From a phage, in the sequence record PZ379177.1: 64,000 bases of DNA; one strand, given 5' to 3'. The notes below the pieces were generated by a model, which was not told where the DNA came from, did not search any database, and saw only the letters and a program-made list of their open reading frames with translations. Made by a program: the position numbers and the translations under genes. Below, one piece after another: positions 25,249-30,004 of the stretch (its first letter is position 1; each line of letters opens with the position of its first letter).

Positions 25249-25644
25249 ATGATCATCGATATTGAAAAGGCGCTTAAGCGTGAACTGACACCAGGCGCAA
25301 CTCCTGGTGAAGAAGCCTACTACCGACCAAAGTCGCAACGCACCAATGATATTCCGGTCGCCAAGCGTACAGTGAATAAAAACGGTCAGCGGTCGCGACC
25401 GCGCTCTATCCGGTCCGGTGAGAAGCTGAAAACGATTCGTCAGTGTCTACAACGCCTCGAAATCATGGGTTGTCGCGCTTATATCGACCCTGATGGAAAG
25501 GTTCTGGTGAGAATTGGCAATAGTACACAACTACAAGACGGATTGCCCTGCGGCGAATCCAGACCCATAGCCAAGACCGACCGTGTAGCTACTGGCCGCG
25601 AGATTGAGGAAAGTTGGTTGGGTGCTTTCTTATTAAAATATTGA
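25249..25644 (+). CDS. hypothetical protein
   Basis: 131-aa basic ORF. Confidence 0.4.
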   Translation: MIIDIEKALKRELTPGATPGEEAYYRPKSQRTNDIPVAKRTVNKNGQRSRPRSIRSGEKLKTIRQCLQRLEIMGCRAYIDPDGKVLVRIGNSTQLQDGLPCGESRPIAKTDRVATGREIEESWLGAFLLKY

Positions 25645-25651
25645 GGATTAT

Positions 25652-25849
25652 GTGAATCAAAATGAATCAGTAGCATTCTTACAATGGCTGGAAGGTGTGG
25701 TGGAGTATTACGCTCCAAAAGACCGCTTCATCTTTCAAGGAAAAAGTTACAAGCGCAAAGGGCAGGCCCAGAAAGCAGCGCGTAAGTACTGGAAGGAAGT
25801 TTATTCAGAGTTCTTTCAGCAGATGGGCAGCACAGTTGGTATCGATTGA
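25652..25849 (+). CDS. hypothetical protein
   Basis: 65-aa ORF. Confidence 0.4.
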   Translation: MNQNESVAFLQWLEGVVEYYAPKDRFIFQGKSYKRKGQAQKAARKYWKEVYSEFFQQMGSTVGID

Positions 25850-25944
25850 TGAATGTTGATTTCGTGATGTTTTTGATCATATTGGCGATAAGTTCAGTAT
25901 TTGTTGTCGCTATGATCGCGCTTATTGATTGGTTGGATAAATAA
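25849..25944 (+). CDS. small hydrophobic protein (31 aa), not in ORF track
   Basis: ATG shares its A with the upstream TGA stop; product MNVDFVMFLIILAISSVFVVAMIALIDWLDK is a single transmembrane helix. Confidence 0.3.
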   Translation: MNVDFVMFLIILAISSVFVVAMIALIDWLDK

Positions 25945-26602
25945 ATCGTGGTTTTGGTGATTTTGGTGATTTAACCGTGAATCGTGGGTCGCTGTGGCGG
26001 CCCTTTCTTTTGCCTGCCGCGCAGGAGTGTACTGCAAATTTACTGTGGGCACAAAATAGTACGGTACTGTCCAGGACTTTTTCTTTGAAAAGTTAGTGGA
26101 CCAAATGTGTCGTATTTTGATTAGTGTACTGCAAATTCCATCAAGTAGCAAAACGCACCAAAAGACCCATGCCATAAAAACCACACGAACGCAATAATCA
26201 ATCGCCGTTACAGTTTCCAGCGTTACAATTCGAAAGCGAATGATTCGATGCATAATAATATGAAGCATAATGATTCGAAAGCTAATGATTGCGTGTAGGA
26301 TAATATCGGTGGGGATTATTCTAGATGCATGTAATTTCGCATGCGTACTATTTTCGGACGAAGGGTCGGCATATTCCTCGTTTTAGTTCGGAACGAAGGG
26401 AAAGTTTTGCGCCTTTATAAAACAATGACTTACGCGACCCGCCCTAACGGTCCGATATAGGTGTCTATATAAAACAAGGACTTACGCGATGTTCTCCATT
26501 TAACGTAATACCCGTTATGCGAACTAAGGCGCATCTCGACGAAGATTATGCGACGACGAAGGGAAGGATAAAGGAGTTTTCGCGGAGAAGCGCATCGAGA
26601 TA

Positions 26603-26634
26603 GGGACGAAGAAAAGCCGCGACTAAGCGCGGCC
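26603..26634 (-). terminator. rho-independent terminator closing the leftward arm of the atypical cassette
   Basis: minus-strand hairpin GCCGCGCTTAGTCGCGGC followed by TTTTCTTCG, about 20 nt after the 26654 stop. Confidence 0.4.
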
Positions 26635-26653
26635 TATTAGTAACGGAAGGGTA

Positions 26654-26944
26654 TTATAAGGAAACGATTTTAAAGAAAGAGTAACGGCCTTCGCCTTCGG
26701 ATACCGCGAGATATTCGCCGCCGAACTCCGTAGCAAAATAAACCTTGCCTTCGATAGTAACGCGGAAGGTAGAAATATCTTCCTCTTCGAGTTCCGTAAA
26801 TTCGCTAAAATCGATAGGACTATGAAGCTCCTCGATAGTCGCATCTACGTTAAAGAGATAAACGTTTTTAAGTTTTTCGCCAAATACGTTAGAGTTTTCG
26901 GAAGTTTCGGCGCGAGCGTTACGGATAGCGGCTAAAGTAATCAT
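26654..26944 (-). CDS. hypothetical small acidic protein (cassette gene 1)
   Basis: 96 aa; AGGAGATTATTATG initiation context; CG-rich codon usage unlike flanking phage genes. Confidence 0.55.
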   Translation of the reverse strand: MITLAAIRNARAETSENSNVFGEKLKNVYLFNVDATIEELHSPIDFSEFTELEEEDISTFRVTIEGKVYFATEFGGEYLAVSEGEGRYSFFKIVSL

Positions 26945-27045
26945 AATAATCTCCTAGTTGGGTCGGGAGGGTAGCGACCTATTCGCTACCTCATCCCCTC
27001 TCGATATAAAACATTATAGTCTTAGTGTACGAAGAAGTAAAGCAC
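26945..27045 (-). promoter_or_regulatory. sigma70-type promoter plus structured 5' UTR for cassette gene 1
   Basis: minus strand TTTACT-N17-TATAAT, then hairpin GGTAGCGA-ATAGG-TCGCTACC, then AGGAG RBS. Confidence 0.5.
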
Positions 27046-27052
27046 TTTTTCA

Positions 27053-27355
27053 TTATTCTGCGATAAAATATTTATAAGCTTTATCGCCTTCTACGTCGAT
27101 ATACTCGACGATAATTAACGCTTCGCCGCGAGGCGTAACCGTCTCGATAAGGGTAACGGCTTCGTCGTCGGTCTTCGCGAAGCGGATGGCGCTACGTTCG
27201 GCATACTTCATATCGTCGAAGGAAAGGCCGATGAAGGCGACCGCGCGGACCTTAATGGCGCTAGATTCTAGTTCCGCGTTAACGGCGGCGATAAGAGAGC
27301 GAACAGTTAAGCGGTCTTCGTCGTAAGTAAGGATGGAAGAGATTAAAGTAGTCAT
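27053..27355 (-). CDS. hypothetical small acidic protein (cassette gene 2)
   Basis: ORF trimmed to MTTLISS start with GGGAGCTTTATTATG context; same atypical codon style. Confidence 0.55.
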   Translation of the reverse strand: MTTLISSILTYDEDRLTVRSLIAAVNAELESSAIKVRAVAFIGLSFDDMKYAERSAIRFAKTDDEAVTLIETVTPRGEALIIVEYIDVEGDKAYKYFIAE

Positions 27356-27396
27356 AATAAAGCTCCCGATGCTAGTAGAAGAAAGGGCCATCGCCC

Positions 27397-27579
27397 GTCT
27401 CGATATAAACAAGTATACGCGAGTGTACGAAGAAGTAAAGAAAAAAGATAAAATAATTTATCGCATTTTTATCTAAAAAGTGCTTTACTTTTTTCTACAC
27501 TATATTATAATGTACTCATATCGGGACGGGATGAGTTAACGAATAGGTCGTTAACGCCTCTCCCAACTAGGAGTTTATT
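27397..27579. promoter_or_regulatory. divergent promoter pair with central palindromic operator and structured 5' UTR
   Basis: leftward TTTACT-N16-TATACT; rightward TTTACT-N16-TATAAT; between them AGATAAAA-N13-TTTTATCT; rightward UTR hairpin GTTAACGA-ATAGG-TCGTTAAC then AGGAG RBS. Confidence 0.5.
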
Positions 27580-27894
27580 ATGGCTATCGTTACCCGCTTT
27601 ACCCTCGAAAACGCAACCGCCGAAGTCCAGGGCGTTACGCTTACTTACGGCGAAATTCTCGCTAAATTCTCCGGCGTTCGCTTAGGCGAAGAAATTAACG
27701 ACGCGACGGTAATCGAGCAACTCGCTGCTTCTCGCTTAGAGCGCGACGAAAACGGATTCTTCGAAGTCGATGCGGAATTAAATTTATGCGGTAAAACGGC
27801 GTTTATTAACGAGTTCGAACTCGCCGTTTTAGTTAATTACGATAGCAAAGCTTACGCCTTCGCCCTCGAATTAATCGAAGACGACGAAGAGTAA
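27580..27894 (+). CDS. hypothetical small acidic protein (cassette gene 3)
   Basis: 104 aa, acidic C-terminus IEDDEE; AGGAGTTTATTATG context. Confidence 0.6.
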   Translation: MAIVTRFTLENATAEVQGVTLTYGEILAKFSGVRLGEEINDATVIEQLAASRLERDENGFFEVDAELNLCGKTAFINEFELAVLVNYDSKAYAFALELIEDDEE

Positions 27895-27974
27895 GAGAGG
27901 ATTTTTAGAGCGTCGTGCGCGGCGCTTTAATAAAATTCTTTCGCGCCTAGCGCCCTAACAAATAGGAGTTTATT

Positions 27975-28601
27975 ATGGTTAGCTTAAATCGCTTTTCTAC
28001 TAGCGGCGACGTTATCGCAACTAAGACCGCCGACCTCGTTGCATTCTATAATGCAAATTCCGGCTCAAAACCGATTAAGAAGTTTGCGGACCGCCGGACC
28101 GCCGAGACTCGCGTAATCGCGTTAATCGAGTCCTTAAACGCGCTCGATGCGCCGTCCAACGAGTCGCCCATCCCCGACGCGAAGGCGCGCGAGGAAGTGT
28201 CCAGCGATGTAAAAACTCATAAGGCGCGTGCGGTCGTTAAAAAGGCTGAGCCGACCCAGGAAGAACTCGACGCGATGACCGACGAAGAATATGAAGCCTT
28301 CGTTAAGAGCGGTTTAAATGATAGTGCAAATTGCGTAGTGCAAAATGGAACTCCTTCCCATCGCCGTTCGAATAGCGAAGGTATTGCAAAAAGCTGGGAT
28401 AATAAGGAAGTGGCGCAAAAGCGTCTCACCCGTAACGGTGTCATGGTCGAGGGTGTAGGCGAGTTCAAATCGGTCCGCGTAGCGTTCGCTGCGCTGGGAT
28501 TACCGGATAGCAAGCACATTCGCTTCCGCATGAAGCTTAAGGAAGCTGGGCGCTTGAACTTCGAGTTCGGCAACAAGTCCTACACCTTCCAGATTATCTA
28601 A
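27975..28601 (+). CDS. hypothetical protein (cassette gene 4)
   Basis: 208 aa; identical AGGAGTTTATTATG context; contains two ATAGTGCAAAT-type motif copies in its coding sequence. Confidence 0.6.
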   Translation: MVSLNRFSTSGDVIATKTADLVAFYNANSGSKPIKKFADRRTAETRVIALIESLNALDAPSNESPIPDAKAREEVSSDVKTHKARAVVKKAEPTQEELDAMTDEEYEAFVKSGLNDSANCVVQNGTPSHRRSNSEGIAKSWDNKEVAQKRLTRNGVMVEGVGEFKSVRVAFAALGLPDSKHIRFRMKLKEAGRLNFEFGNKSYTFQII

Positions 28602-28607
28602 TAGAAT

Positions 28608-28631
28608 GGCGGCCCTTCGGGGTCGCTTTTC
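28608..28631 (+). terminator. rho-independent terminator closing the rightward arm of the cassette
   Basis: hairpin GGCGGCCC-TTCG-GGGTCGC followed by TTTT, 7 nt after the 28601 stop. Confidence 0.4.
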
Positions 28632-28651
28632 ATAGTGCAAATTGGTGGCTT

Positions 28652-28915
28652 ATGAATACGCTCATTCTCATCGCTACGTTATCCATCGGAAGTGGTCGCA
28701 CCTTATCCCTTTACGACCATAGTGCAAATTGCGCTTATCCTACGCGCGTTGCGGCGATAGTTAATAGTGCAAATAAGATGCTATTCGAGACTTGCTGGCG
28801 GGTCGATAACGAGAAAGGTCGGGTAGTCTTAGGTTATAGTGCAAATCTGCTGGTGGAGTCGTTCGATTGGACGGTTGAAGGTCGTAAATTGTTACGGAAA
28901 GTGACTAAAAGATGA
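28652..28915 (+). CDS. questionable ORF (87 aa) carrying three in-frame copies of the 11-mer
   Basis: weak RBS; motif copies read as HSANCA, NSANKM, YSANLL; may be a repeat region rather than a gene. Confidence 0.25.
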   Translation: MNTLILIATLSIGSGRTLSLYDHSANCAYPTRVAAIVNSANKMLFETCWRVDNEKGRVVLGYSANLLVESFDWTVEGRKLLRKVTKR

Positions 28916-28976
28916 CTTATAATAATACACTTTCTAACGCGTTTATGGTTGTAACCTTCCCCGTCGTATTACCGAT

Positions 28977-29016
28977 GGCCCTAGAAGTGGAGAAAATGTG
29001 TTCTAGGGCCGTTTTA
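28977..29016 (+). terminator. rho-independent terminator
   Basis: perfect 10-bp inverted repeat GGCCCTAGAA...TTCTAGGGCC followed by GTTTTA. Confidence 0.5.
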
Positions 29017-29029
29017 TAGTGCAAATTGG

Positions 29030-29503
29030 CTAGTGGCGGGAGAATTGCTCACCTTCTTTGGCCGCCTCTCCAAAATCCTTGTAGAAATCGTCCATGGAAC
29101 GGCCCATTTTACTATTGCCGTTTTCATCAATCATCGTGATGCCGTAGATGATATTCAGTTCACGAATAGCATTAAGTTTGGCTGACGCCGCGACTTCTGG
29201 ATCACGCACAAGCTTGACCAAATTGTGAATTGCACCTTTTACGCTCCACAAATCCTTGAGTGGCATCTCTTCCATACGCTTTTTGAAGCGCATCTTGTAG
29301 TATGGATTGCGTTGCGCGCAAAGGATTCGCTGGCCAGTGTAGTTATCCGTTGCAACTTCCATTCCAAATACTAGTGCAAAAGCTGCGCGCATGTCATGGC
29401 CCTGAATAACAAGGTCAATGAACTCATCGAATAAAGCCTGATTGTGCTCTGCAAATCGCGGGTCTTCAAAGTCTTCAGGCATCGCTACATAATCTTGACT
29501 CAT
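29030..29503 (-). CDS. hypothetical protein (speculatively terminase small subunit-like)
   Basis: 157 aa with normal phage codon style; no clear SD; both candidate ATGs lie inside copies of the 11-mer (read as TTTGCACTATG on the coding strand). Confidence 0.45.
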   Translation of the reverse strand: MSQDYVAMPEDFEDPRFAEHNQALFDEFIDLVIQGHDMRAAFALVFGMEVATDNYTGQRILCAQRNPYYKMRFKKRMEEMPLKDLWSVKGAIHNLVKLVRDPEVAASAKLNAIRELNIIYGITMIDENGNSKMGRSMDDFYKDFGEAAKEGEQFSRH

Positions 29504-29654
29504 AGTGCAAAATCCCATAGTGCAAATTAATAGTGTGAATTATACAATGGATGGACATTATATTCAAGTGCAGATTGATGTTCATTATGGCTATAAACGT
29601 ACACAAATCATAGTGCTGAATGGATAACGGACCGTGGTGCGTGGTGTACTGTTT

Positions 29655-30004
29655 GATACGGATAAAAGAAATCCATCCCTTTCGCCGCTTGTTATGCAAA
29701 TCAATGACTTAGCCGCTGCTGGCTGGTTTAAGCGTATCATGACGTATCATCCGTATTGCCGCAAGTCTTTGTTTTTACTTATATCTTACGGATAATACGT
29801 TAAATATATAAATTAACATAAGTATGAGGATGTAGAAAAAAAATTAATTTAAATTAATTCAAAATGGAGTTAATTAATTTTTGAAATAATTCTGGTTACA
29901 ATAAGGAAAAATGGCGTATCATCCGTATCATCCGTAAGATTCAGTGTACAAATCCAGGCGCGGCGCACCCTAGCGCCATGATACGGATAAAAACCTATCC
30001 GTAA
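29655..30004. repeat. complex regulatory repeat module copy 2 (GATACGGAT units flanking an AT-rich core)
   Basis: 29-bp block GCGTATCATCCGTATCATCCGTAAGATTC identical to 14156-14184; GATACGGATAAAA at 29655 and 29980; AT-rich core 29800-29900. Confidence 0.6.

What the first reader, a model, noticed from the sequence alone, without database searches (positions are those of the whole stretch)
26969..27555. Conserved 5'-UTR hairpin with compensatory base-pair changes
The leader of gene 26654..26944 contains GGTAGCGA-ATAGG-TCGCTACC (26969-26990, read on the minus strand). The leader of gene 27580..27894 contains GTTAACGA-ATAGG-TCGTTAAC (27535-27555). Both are perfect 8-bp stems with an identical ATAGG loop. 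They differ at two stem positions, and both partner bases have changed to preserve pairing. Each is flanked by GGGATGAG upstream and CTCCC plus the AGGAG RBS downstream. Covariation argues for a functional RNA or DNA structure next to the ribosome-binding site, such as a protein-binding operator, a processing site or a translational control element.
Basis: seen in the sequence. Interest (0 to 1): 0.6.

Follow-up and report, generated by a model that had tools for sequence, protein, structure and literature searches.

The report
Leader hairpin in phage early mRNAs
Two early genes of an E. coli phage of the genus Wifcevirus start with the same small RNA hairpin between promoter and ribosome-binding site; the structure is real and conserved, but it belongs to an ordinary kind of element and its function is untested.

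Summary
The two hairpins lie at 26970-26990 (minus strand) and 27535-27555 (plus strand). Each has an 8-bp stem and an ATAGG loop, and they differ by two fully compensated base-pair changes.

The window is a Wifcevirus, a myophage of E. coli that is 97% identical to WFC. The hairpins lie inside its ~3.7-kb direct terminal repeat. They belong to paralogous cassettes made of a sigma-70-type promoter, a ~62-nt leader and a strong RBS. There are three such cassettes (P1, P2, P3). P2 carries a different, shorter hairpin at the same place.

In 25 genomes and 6 metagenome contigs the P1 and P3 hairpins are always present. The variants include a third compensated pair, two G·U wobbles and two single mismatches. 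The lower stem is also kept through different flank sequences.

There is no U-tract, no Rfam match, and no copy outside the genus. The related Kylevirus has the same promoters, mostly with short leaders that lack a hairpin.

My best reading is a cis-acting structural element of the 5'UTR of immediate-early mRNAs that stabilises or insulates them. This is inferred, not shown. The main rival is a specific protein operator, because the apical CGA-AUAGG-UCG never varies. I rate it a new member of a known kind, of modest interest.

The parts
27013..27041 (-). Promoter P1: -35 TTTACT (27041-27036), 17-nt spacer, -10 TATAAT (27018-27013). Predicted +1 is the A at 27007, the start of the conserved ATATCGAGA.
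   Evidence: Consensus scan scores 10/12. Coordinates. Conserved in all wifcevirus genomes. The transcription start is inferred from spacing, not measured.
26965..26997 (-). P1 leader hairpin. Upper stem-loop 26990-26970 is GGUAGCGA-AUAGG-UCGCUACC. The lower stem pairs GGGA and G with C and UCCC, with two 1-nt bulges.
   Evidence: Sequence; fold; pair counts; covariance model hit of 66.9 bits.
26944..26955 (-). P1 RBS: AGGAG (26955-26951) and the ATG at 26944 of the 96-aa acidic ORFan gene 26654..26944.
   Evidence: Annotated as a hypothetical protein in WFC and Mansfield.
26614..26635 (-). Intrinsic terminator that ends the P2/P1 leftward transcription unit.
   Evidence: 8 pairs, 6 G-C, T-rich tail. 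Annotated as a terminator in WFC, WFH and Mansfield.
27412..27439 (-). Promoter P2: -35 TTTACT, 16-nt spacer, -10 TATACT. Predicted +1 is 27406.
27381..27401 (-). P2 leader hairpin at the same position as in P1 and P3 but with a different sequence: GAGA.GGGC-GAUG-GCCCUUUC. It lacks the AUAGG loop.
   Evidence: Mansfield (AGAGGC/GCCUCU) and ECO71P1 (GGGAG/CUCCC) have other stems at this site and still fold into a hairpin.
27053..27355 (-). P2 gene, a 100-aa acidic ORFan. No terminator was found between its stop codon and P1, so P2 transcripts probably read through the P1 hairpin.
   Evidence: WFC annotation.
27484..27511 (+). Promoter P3: -35 TTTACT, 16-nt spacer, -10 TATAAT. Predicted +1 is 27518. 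It lies back to back with P2.
   Evidence: (10/12).
27523..27564 (+). P3 leader hairpin. Upper stem-loop 27535-27555 is GUUAACGA-AUAGG-UCGUUAAC. The lower stem pairs GGGA.GGG with CCU.UCCC.
   Evidence: 62.3 bits. The lower stem re-forms in another register in the TH35-type variant (GACGGG/CCCGUC).
27569..27582 (+). P3 RBS: AGGAG (27569-27573) and the ATG at 27580 of the 104-aa acidic ORFan gene 27580..27894. The operon continues with the conserved 208-aa gene 27975..28601.

Best explanation
The element is an RNA hairpin in the 5'UTR of two immediate-early mRNAs of a Wifcevirus.

Shown: three paralogous cassettes (sigma-70-type promoter, ~62-nt leader, strong RBS) lie in the direct terminal repeat and drive small acidic ORFan genes. 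In P1 and P3 the leader folds into a 13-14-bp hairpin of about -20 kcal/mol. It spans roughly +11 to +43 (P1) and +6 to +47 (P3) from the predicted start and ends 5-9 nt before the Shine-Dalgarno sequence. It has no U-tract.

Inferred: the hairpin forms as the host RNA polymerase transcribes these genes, and it acts in cis as a structural leader element. It would protect the short early mRNAs from 5'-end-dependent or scanning attack by RNase E, or it would lock the G-rich and C-rich leader segments against each other so that the A/U-rich RBS stays independent of whichever gene is placed behind the cassette. It is an accessory to the cassette, not a switch.
For: Identity and context. The window is 97% identical to phage WFC, and the region lies in the direct terminal repeat annotated for Mansfield.

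Promoters. All three score 9-10 of 12 in the consensus scan. The conserved ATATCGRGA begins 6-7 nt after each -10 hexamer.

Structure.
- Two compensated pairs separate the paralogues.
- EC150 carries a further U-A to A-U flip.
- G·U occurs in P3 of five genomes and U·G in P1 of Bas99.
- 97.8% of cells are paired and 0/500 shuffles reach the observed covariation score.
- The lower stem is kept through three different 3' flanks.

Structure is kept more than sequence. P2 has another hairpin at the same position, and its orthologues in Mansfield and ECO71P1 have yet other stems. In Pantoea phage PA1, two of the four promoters of this type have hairpin leaders of unrelated sequence.

The P3 upper hairpin is the same (bar one G·U variant) whichever of three first genes follows it, so it belongs to the cassette and not to the gene.

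5'-terminal stem-loops that stabilise E. coli mRNAs such as ompA and papA are established (review PMC3997798, refs 92-95).
Against: - No transcription start or mRNA half-life has been measured.
- With the predicted start, 5-10 nt stay unpaired at the 5' end. From my own recollection of the ompA work, that is more than the few nucleotides a classical 5'-terminal stabiliser allows.
- Thermodynamic modelling showed no clear gain in SD accessibility from the hairpin.
- A generic structural role does not explain why the apical 11 nt (CGA-AUAGG-UCG) are identical in two paralogues that differ at about 21% of cassette positions. The chance of that is roughly 0.04-0.07 (my estimate from the differences counted).
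- Two Kylevirus early leaders and one Kyle homologue have no hairpin at all.
- Single mismatches are tolerated in Bas98 and kaset.
Confidence: 0.4

Rival explanations
1. The hairpin is a specific operator for a trans-acting RNA-binding protein, either a later phage protein or a host factor. The protein would recognise the apical CGA-AUAGG-UCG on a stem of variable sequence. It would repress or activate both divergent early units (P1 and P3) together, for example to shut off early gene translation.
For: The loop and the three closing pairs are identical in P1 and P3, while the outer stem covaries and the flanks diverge. Across all genomes the loop never varies and the closing pairs change only once, in Bas98. 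An invariant loop on a covarying stem is the classical signature of hairpins bound by proteins (my own knowledge). A hairpin with a similar loop, CGG-AAUAGA-CCG, lies in one Kylevirus early leader. It is 100% identical between PA1 and Kyle although the region is only ~74% identical.
Against: - No candidate binding protein was found. The downstream products are acidic (pI 4.1-4.6).
- The hairpin does not co-vary with the downstream gene.
- P2 and most Kylevirus cassettes lack the motif.
- The covariance model does not detect the Kylevirus hairpin, so homology is unproven.
- The loop lacks the GGA motif that I recall as the CsrA site, and it is not like a GNRA loop.
- Diversity within the genus is low, so invariance of 11 nt carries little weight.
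Confidence: 0.25
2. The hairpin has no function at the RNA level. It is an inherited palindrome within a repeated regulatory cassette that serves as a site of homologous recombination for shuffling ORFan genes, as PeSL cassettes do. Its symmetry would be restored by template switching within the palindrome (quasi-palindrome correction), which imitates compensatory evolution.
For: The cassettes are repeated, ~80% identical and associated with ORFans. P3 is joined to three different first genes, F13 has an extra P1 copy, and kaset's P1 looks like a recombinant of an EC150-type 5' arm with a standard 3' arm. Recombination between PeSL promoter/stem-loop cassettes is documented in T4-type phages (PMC2839356). 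Single mismatches persist in some isolates.
Against: The G·U state in P3 is found in five genomes. It is a mismatch in DNA but a pair in RNA, and it has not been corrected. The lower stem is imperfect and bulged, yet it is kept by non-palindromic changes in different registers, which template switching does not explain. The hairpin is present in every one of about 31 P1 and P3 copies.
Confidence: 0.12
3. The hairpin is a processing site, for RNase III or another double-strand-specific nuclease. Cleavage would give defined 5' ends and would separate the P1 gene from P2 read-through transcripts, as in the T7 early operon.
For: No terminator was found between the P2 gene and P1, so the P1 hairpin is also intercistronic. 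The extended stem has 13-14 bp with bulges.
Against: The helix is shorter than the roughly two helical turns typical of RNase III substrates (my own knowledge). P3 has no upstream cistron yet carries the same element. Nothing suggests an internal loop of the T7 R1.1 type. No Rfam match was found.
Confidence: 0.1
4. The hairpin is an antitermination signal in the nascent RNA, like lambda nut boxB or HK022 put. It would modify RNA polymerase so that it reads through downstream terminators.
For: It sits just downstream of divergent early promoters, as nutL/nutR and putL/putR do. It is a short stem with a conserved pentaloop. The P3 operon contains internal terminators annotated in WFC.
Against: The P1 unit ends at a terminator with no gene beyond it on that strand, yet it has the same hairpin. 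I saw no boxA-like element. The loop AUAGG is unlike the boxB loops GAAAA and GAAGA. put needs two stem-loops of about 70 nt, and here there is one. No N-like basic protein was found in the region.
Confidence: 0.05
5. The inverted repeat is an operator on double-stranded DNA for a dimeric repressor that blocks elongation from P1 and P3.
For: It is a perfect inverted repeat located 11-32 bp (P1) and 17-38 bp (P3) downstream of the predicted transcription start at two promoters.
Against: Symmetric half-site changes at two positions are not expected for an operator. The central 5 bp are asymmetric and invariant. The G·T state and the bulged lower stem have no meaning in duplex DNA.
Confidence: 0.05

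Closest known systems
5'-UTR stem-loop mRNA stabilisers of E. coli (ompA, papA) (review PMC3997798)
   Same: A stable hairpin near the 5' end of an mRNA, upstream of the RBS and without a U-tract. Structure is conserved more than sequence. It works in cis and can be moved between genes.
   Different: The predicted unpaired 5' tail is 5-10 nt, longer than the few nucleotides I recall for classical stabilisers. The apical sequence is invariant between paralogues. No stability data exist for this element.
PeSL cassettes (promoter-early stem-loop) of T4-type phages (PMC2839356, PMC4122927)
   Same: Repeated units of about 100 bp that combine a strong sigma-70-like early promoter with a G/C-rich stem-loop. 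They sit in front of ORFans in a plastic region, and the genes behind them are exchanged between close relatives.
   Different: PeSL stem-loops act as terminators. They lie upstream of, within, or just before the start of the promoter. Here the hairpin is well inside the transcribed leader and is not a terminator. There are only three cassettes, all in the terminal repeat, and recombination was not tested.
Lambda nutL/nutR boxB and HK022 putL/putR
   Same: RNA hairpins just downstream of divergent early promoters. boxB is a short stem with a conserved pentaloop.
   Different: No boxA element and a different loop. There is a single hairpin, no N-like protein, and one of the two units has nothing to antiterminate into.
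Host-takeover gene clusters in the terminal repeats of SPO1 and T5 (my own knowledge)
   Same: Small early genes of unknown function with strong host-type promoters and strong RBSs, located in a long direct terminal repeat.
   Different: The phage lineage differs. As far as I know, a leader hairpin is not a described feature of those clusters.

Membership tests
Intrinsic terminator / attenuator | A G+C-rich hairpin followed directly by a U-run | tested here: not met
   The 3' flanks are CCCUCCCGACCC (P1) and CGCCUCUCCCAAC (P3). The terminator scan does not list either site.
PeSL (T4-type promoter-early stem-loop cassette) | A strong sigma-70-like early promoter within a repeated unit of about 100 bp in front of ORFans | tested here: met
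   The three cassettes score 9-10 of 12 against the consensus. P1 and P3 are ~79% identical. The downstream genes have no family match.
PeSL (T4-type promoter-early stem-loop cassette) | The stem-loop works as a terminator and lies upstream of, within, or just before the start of the promoter | tested here: not met
   The hairpin lies well downstream of the predicted start, inside the leader, and has no U-run. The definition comes from PMC2839356.
PeSL (T4-type promoter-early stem-loop cassette) | Cassettes mediate modular exchange of the flanked genes | tested here: inconclusive
   P3 is joined to three different first genes, F13 has an extra P1 copy, and kaset has a chimeric P1. Recombination itself was not shown.
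Lambda-type nut site (boxA + boxB) | boxB: a 5-bp stem with a GNRA-like pentaloop (GAAAA or GAAGA); a boxA element upstream; an N-type arginine-rich protein | tested here: not met
   The loop is AUAGG on an 8-bp stem. I saw no boxA-like sequence in the leader. No family hit for the neighbouring proteins. The family features are from my own knowledge.
HK022 put RNA | Two adjacent stem-loops of about 70 nt just downstream of the early promoters | tested here: not met
   A single hairpin is predicted in a ~62-nt leader.
RNase III processing site (T7 R1.1 type) | About 20 bp of coaxial helix, usually with an internal loop; cleavage by RNase III | tested here: inconclusive
   Only 13-14 bp with bulges are predicted. 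Cleavage cannot be tested with these tools.
5'-terminal stem-loop stabiliser (ompA type) | A hairpin within a few nucleotides of the 5' end of the mRNA that prolongs its half-life | not testable with these tools
   The start is only predicted, at 27007 and 27518, which leaves 5-10 unpaired nt. No half-life data exist.
Any Rfam family | A covariance-model match | tested here: not met
   cmscan of 25500-30000 at E<=5 gave only two chance-level hits elsewhere in the region.
N4-type hairpin promoter | A 5-7-bp stem with a 3-nt loop upstream of the start, used by a virion RNA polymerase | tested here: not met
   The loop is 5 nt and the stem 8 bp. The hairpin lies downstream of a sigma-70-type promoter. 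The family features are from my own knowledge.

The most novel reading that the evidence does not exclude
The hairpin, with its invariant apical CGA-AUAGG-UCG, is the operator of an unidentified RNA-binding regulator, either a phage middle protein or a host factor. The regulator would switch both divergent immediate-early units of the terminal repeat together. The element would be older than the genus and related to the perfectly conserved CGG-AAUAGA-CCG leader hairpin of the Pantoea Kylevirus phages. That would define a new translational control circuit in a group of very fast-replicating phages.
Probability: 0.15. Interest if true: 0.55.

Novelty: new member of a known kind. Interest (0 to 1): 0.3.

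Why it matters
Wifceviruses are poorly studied. They are reported to replicate unusually fast, with 3-5 minutes from adsorption to release, as cited in the BASEL paper. Nothing has been published on their early gene expression.

This analysis defines their immediate-early expression cassette: promoter, conserved transcript start, leader hairpin and RBS, all within the terminal repeat. It shows that the cassette is reused in front of interchangeable ORFan genes.

If the hairpin stabilises or insulates mRNAs, it is a compact, portable 5'UTR part for strong expression in E. coli. If it is a specific operator, it gives access to the early-to-middle switch of these phages. In either case it is an example of a familiar class, not a new principle.

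Tried and rejected
- **Rfam scan of 25500-30000:** nothing relevant.
- **IMG/VR scan for GGGATGAG-N7-ATAGG-N7-C:** 111 pattern matches in the loci held at that point. Only the 14 from wifcevirus DNA have paired stems; the rest are chance.
- **Promoter and leader pattern scans of IMG/VR and metagenomes:** only wifcevirus contigs carry the cassette.
- **blastn of the cassette against complete E. coli genomes:** no match, so it is not borrowed from host or prophage.
- **Covariance model of the hairpin:** only the two known copies in the window. The Kylevirus hairpin was not detected, so I do not claim homology.
- **Distant relatives found through the conserved 208-aa protein:** none has this promoter type. 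The one hairpin with an AAUAGA loop (L212) lies inside a coding gene and is a chance match.
- **SD-accessibility modelling with mutated arms:** no consistent effect. The idea that the hairpin sequesters an anti-SD sequence is therefore unsupported, though not excluded.
- **Mini-ORF reading:** AUG-AGG-UAG (P1) and AUG-AGU-UAA (P3) overlap the 5' arm. I rejected this because the AUG is lost in EC150, kaset and a metagenome copy while the hairpin is kept, and because it does not explain the changes in the partner bases.
- **Paralogy of the three downstream proteins and homology to the Kylevirus small genes:** none detected.
- **Structure prediction of the 208-aa protein from alignment A3:** The PDB sequence search found nothing.

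Full report
**Observation.** The sequence shows GGTAGCGA-ATAGG-TCGCTACC on the minus strand at 26990..26970. It also shows GTTAACGA-ATAGG-TCGTTAAC on the plus strand at 27535..27555. The two align in exact register. They differ at two stem positions, and in both cases the partner base has changed as well (G-C vs U-A, G-C vs A-U). The flanks GGGATGAG, CTCCC and CTAGGAG are present as described.

A perfect 8-bp hairpin is not rare in itself. The window has 13 with loops of 3-8 nt, against about 6.7 in shuffled sequence. What is unusual is the pattern between the two copies. P1 and P3 differ at 21 of 102 aligned cassette positions. The four differences inside the hairpin form two Watson-Crick-preserving double changes. 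Random substitution gives this with p of about 0.006, or 0.002 if all four changes are placed in the stem.

**What the locus is.** The window is a Wifcevirus, an E. coli myophage. The 2.6-kb region is 97% identical to phage WFC, and 29 GenBank records match it, nearly all named as or classified in this genus. By homology to phage Mansfield (PhageTerm-annotated repeat) and to WFC and WFH (repeat of about 3.7 kb, PMC6563267), the finding lies inside the direct terminal repeat. That repeat covers roughly window 26160-29830.

The hairpins are parts of three paralogous cassettes:

| Cassette | Strand | -35 | -10 | Predicted +1 | Hairpin | SD | ATG |
|---|---|---|---|---|---|---|---|
| P1 | minus | 27041-27036 | 27018-27013 | 27007 | 26997-26965 | 26955-26951 | 26944 |
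| P2 | minus | 27439-27434 | 27417-27412 | 27406 | 27401-27381 | 27367-27363 | 27355 |
| P3 | plus | 27484-27489 | 27506-27511 | 27518 | 27523-27564 | 27569-27573 | 27580 |

Each cassette has a sigma-70-type promoter (TTTACT, 16-17 nt, TATAAT or TATACT). A conserved ATATCG(A/G)GA begins 6-7 nt after the -10 hexamer, so I take its first A as the likely start; this is inferred. Next come a G/C-rich hairpin and an A/U-rich RBS, (T)AGGAG-N6-ATG in P1 and P3 and GGGAG-N7-ATG in P2.

- P1 and P3 share the AUAGG hairpin.
- P2 has a different, shorter hairpin at the same place (GAGA.GGGC-GAUG-GCCCUUUC).
- The downstream genes encode acidic ORFans of 96, 100 and 104 aa (pI 4.1-4.6). They match no Pfam or PHROG family and show no detectable paralogy.
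- P1 ends at an intrinsic terminator (26635-26614).
- No terminator was found between the P2 gene and P1.

**Structure.** The upper stems extend into longer hairpins. In P1, GGGA and G pair with C and UCCC below the 8-bp stem. The leader folds at -20.7 kcal/mol (P1) and -19.9 kcal/mol (P3). The 31-nt cores have z-scores of -3.4 and -2.7.

**Comparative evidence.** I extracted all cassettes from 25 wifcevirus genomes and 6 metagenome contigs. Every P1 and P3 copy found has the hairpin. The variants are:

- A U-A to A-U flip in EC150, which also has a bulged C.
- G·U at pair 5 in P3 of ECML-117, Ro157lw, SP13, F13 and RCIP0319.
- U·G at pair 3 in P1 of Bas99.
- A C·A mismatch in Bas98.
- An A·A mismatch in kaset, which looks like a chimera of the EC150 5' arm and the standard 3' arm.

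On 17 distinct leaders, 97.8% of cells are paired. Three pairs show changes on both sides, and no shuffle of 500 reaches the observed covariation score or percentage paired. Slid controls give 18-56% paired. These counts rest on only about three independent double events.

The lower stem is also maintained. The TH35-type P3 leader has a different 3' flank (CGCCCGUCGAG) that pairs with the unchanged 5' flank in another register, GACGGG/CCCGUC. In P2, the Mansfield and ECO71P1 orthologues have different stems (AGAGGC/GCCUCU and GGGAG/CUCCC) that still fold at the same position.

The G·U states are pairs on the mRNA-sense strand, which favours RNA over DNA. The Bas98 variant would be G·U on the antisense strand, so the strand argument is only suggestive.

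**Distribution.** The element has no Rfam match and no match in complete E. coli genomes. No paired-stem copy occurs outside wifcevirus DNA in IMG/VR or metagenomes. A covariance model finds only the two copies in the window.

The Pantoea phages PA1 and Kyle (Kylevirus) have a syntenic early region with the same promoter type. This includes a homologue of the 208-aa protein at 51-56% identity. Their small ORFans are unrelated to those here.

Two of their four early leaders are short (about 20-28 nt) and have no hairpin. One PA1 leader has an unrelated 6-bp hairpin that Kyle lacks. One leader has GGC-GA-CGG-AAUAGA-CCG-AA-GCC. That hairpin is 100% identical between PA1 and Kyle although the region is only ~74% identical. 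Its loop resembles AUAGG, but the covariance model does not detect it, so homology remains a lead only.

**Mechanism.** The following can be excluded or made unlikely:

- A terminator, because there is no U-run.
- Autoregulation by the downstream product, because the P3 upper hairpin is the same (bar one G·U variant) in front of three different first genes and the products are acidic.
- nut- or put-type antitermination. The P1 unit has no gene beyond its terminator on that strand, I saw no boxA, the loop is different, and there is a single hairpin.
- A duplex-DNA operator. Symmetric covariation, the G·T states and the bulged lower stem do not fit one.

Two serious readings remain.

The first, which I favour at about 0.4, is a generic cis-acting leader structure. 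It would either stabilise the mRNA against 5'-end-dependent or scanning attack by RNase E, or hold the G-rich and C-rich leader segments against each other so that the RBS behaves the same in front of any gene. The evidence for it is that a hairpin is kept at this position in all three cassettes, and in their variants, with different sequences. 5' stem-loop stabilisers are well established in E. coli (PMC3997798).

Several points count against it. The predicted unpaired 5' tail is 5-10 nt. Modelling of SD accessibility was inconclusive. Some Kylevirus leaders have no hairpin. The invariant apical 11 nt are left unexplained.

The second reading (about 0.25) is a specific protein operator. It explains the invariant CGA-AUAGG-UCG on a covarying stem and the perfectly conserved Kylevirus hairpin. 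It has no candidate ligand.

A recombination-module or templated-repair origin with no RNA function (about 0.12) and a processing site (about 0.1) cannot be excluded.

**Comparison with known systems.** The cassette architecture most resembles the PeSL elements of T4-type phages: an early promoter plus a stem-loop in front of shuffled ORFans (PMC2839356). It fails one defining feature, because PeSL stem-loops are terminators placed at or before the promoter. Functionally the nearest analogues are the ompA- and papA-type 5' stem-loops, but membership cannot be tested without 5'-end and half-life data. The setting, small early genes with strong promoters in a long terminal repeat, recalls the host-takeover regions of SPO1 and T5 (my own knowledge).

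**Verdict.** The inference of a selected RNA structure is supported. The function is untested. This is a previously undescribed example of a familiar class, confined to one phage genus and of modest interest. Interest would rise if loop-specific recognition were demonstrated.

Noticed in passing
window 26030-29527, + strand: The motif TA(G/C)TGCAAAT occurs 9 times (26030, 26127, 28322, 28633, 28720, 28765, 28837, 29017, 29518). All copies are on the + strand and inside or within ~130 bp of the inferred terminal repeat; 0.39 copies are expected by chance. The longer form is TCATAGTGCAAATTGG. Several copies lie inside coding sequence and some lie just before start codons. It could be a phage-specific promoter, a set of iterons, or terminase recognition repeats next to the TerS-like gene 29030-29518(-).
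   Followed up: partly
window 26219-26306: Near-tandem repeats of AATGATTCGAAAGC with 15- and 30-nt spacing lie just inside the inferred boundary of the terminal repeat (about 26160).
   Followed up: no
window 26413-26437 and 26465-26489: A 25-nt direct repeat, CT(T/A)TATAAAACAA(T/G)GACTTACGCGA, 92% identical, lies downstream of the terminator of the P1 gene. Its function is unknown.
   Followed up: no
window 26994-26986 (-) and 27531-27539 (+): A two-codon mini-ORF overlaps the 5' arm of each hairpin: AUG-AGG-UAG in P1 and AUG-AGU-UAA in P3. The two covarying 5'-arm positions are the third bases of codon 2 and of the stop codon. The AUG is lost in EC150, kaset and one metagenome copy while the hairpin remains, so this is probably a coincidence.
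   Followed up: yes
P3 cassette, window 27478-27582, and loci L058, L179, L180, L001, L182: The same P3 promoter-leader is joined to three different first genes among wifceviruses: the 104-aa MAIVTRF... gene, a ~94-aa MAILNVSS... gene, or directly the 208-aa MVSLNRF... gene. F13 carries an extra P1 copy, and some genomes have an additional ~50-aa gene between the P1 and P2 genes. The cassette behaves as a modular expression slot.
   Followed up: partly
L196 (Pantoea phage PA1), minus strand about 2424-2370; L197 (Kyle), minus strand about 2523-2470: A Kylevirus early leader contains the hairpin GGC-GA-CGG-AAUAGA-CCG-AA-GCC. It is 100% identical between the two phages although the surrounding region is only ~74% identical. 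Its loop resembles the wifcevirus AUAGG loop.
   Followed up: partly
window 27975-28601 (+): The 208-aa basic early protein (phrog_4730, function unknown) is the only conserved gene of this early region. It is 51-56% identical to its Kylevirus homologues and 32-52% identical (best aligned segment) to proteins on about 19 further, more distant IMG/VR contigs. Its C-terminus EFKSVRxAFxALxLPDSKHIRFRMKLKE is nearly invariant. It has no Pfam or PDB match.
   Followed up: partly
window 27533-27542 with 27589-27597: When 40 nt of coding sequence are included, the minimum-energy fold of the P3 mRNA pairs the 5' arm of the hairpin (GAGUUAACGA) with codons 4-6 (UCGUUAC), and pairs CUCC with the SD GGAG. 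This alternative conformer would close the RBS. It may be an artefact of thermodynamic folding.
   Followed up: no
window 29740-29995: Repeated CATCCGTA / TACGGAT(A/G) motifs, including ATCATCCGTATCATCCGTAAGAT and an inverted copy, lie around the position that corresponds to the physical genome end of phage Mansfield (about 29830).
   Followed up: no
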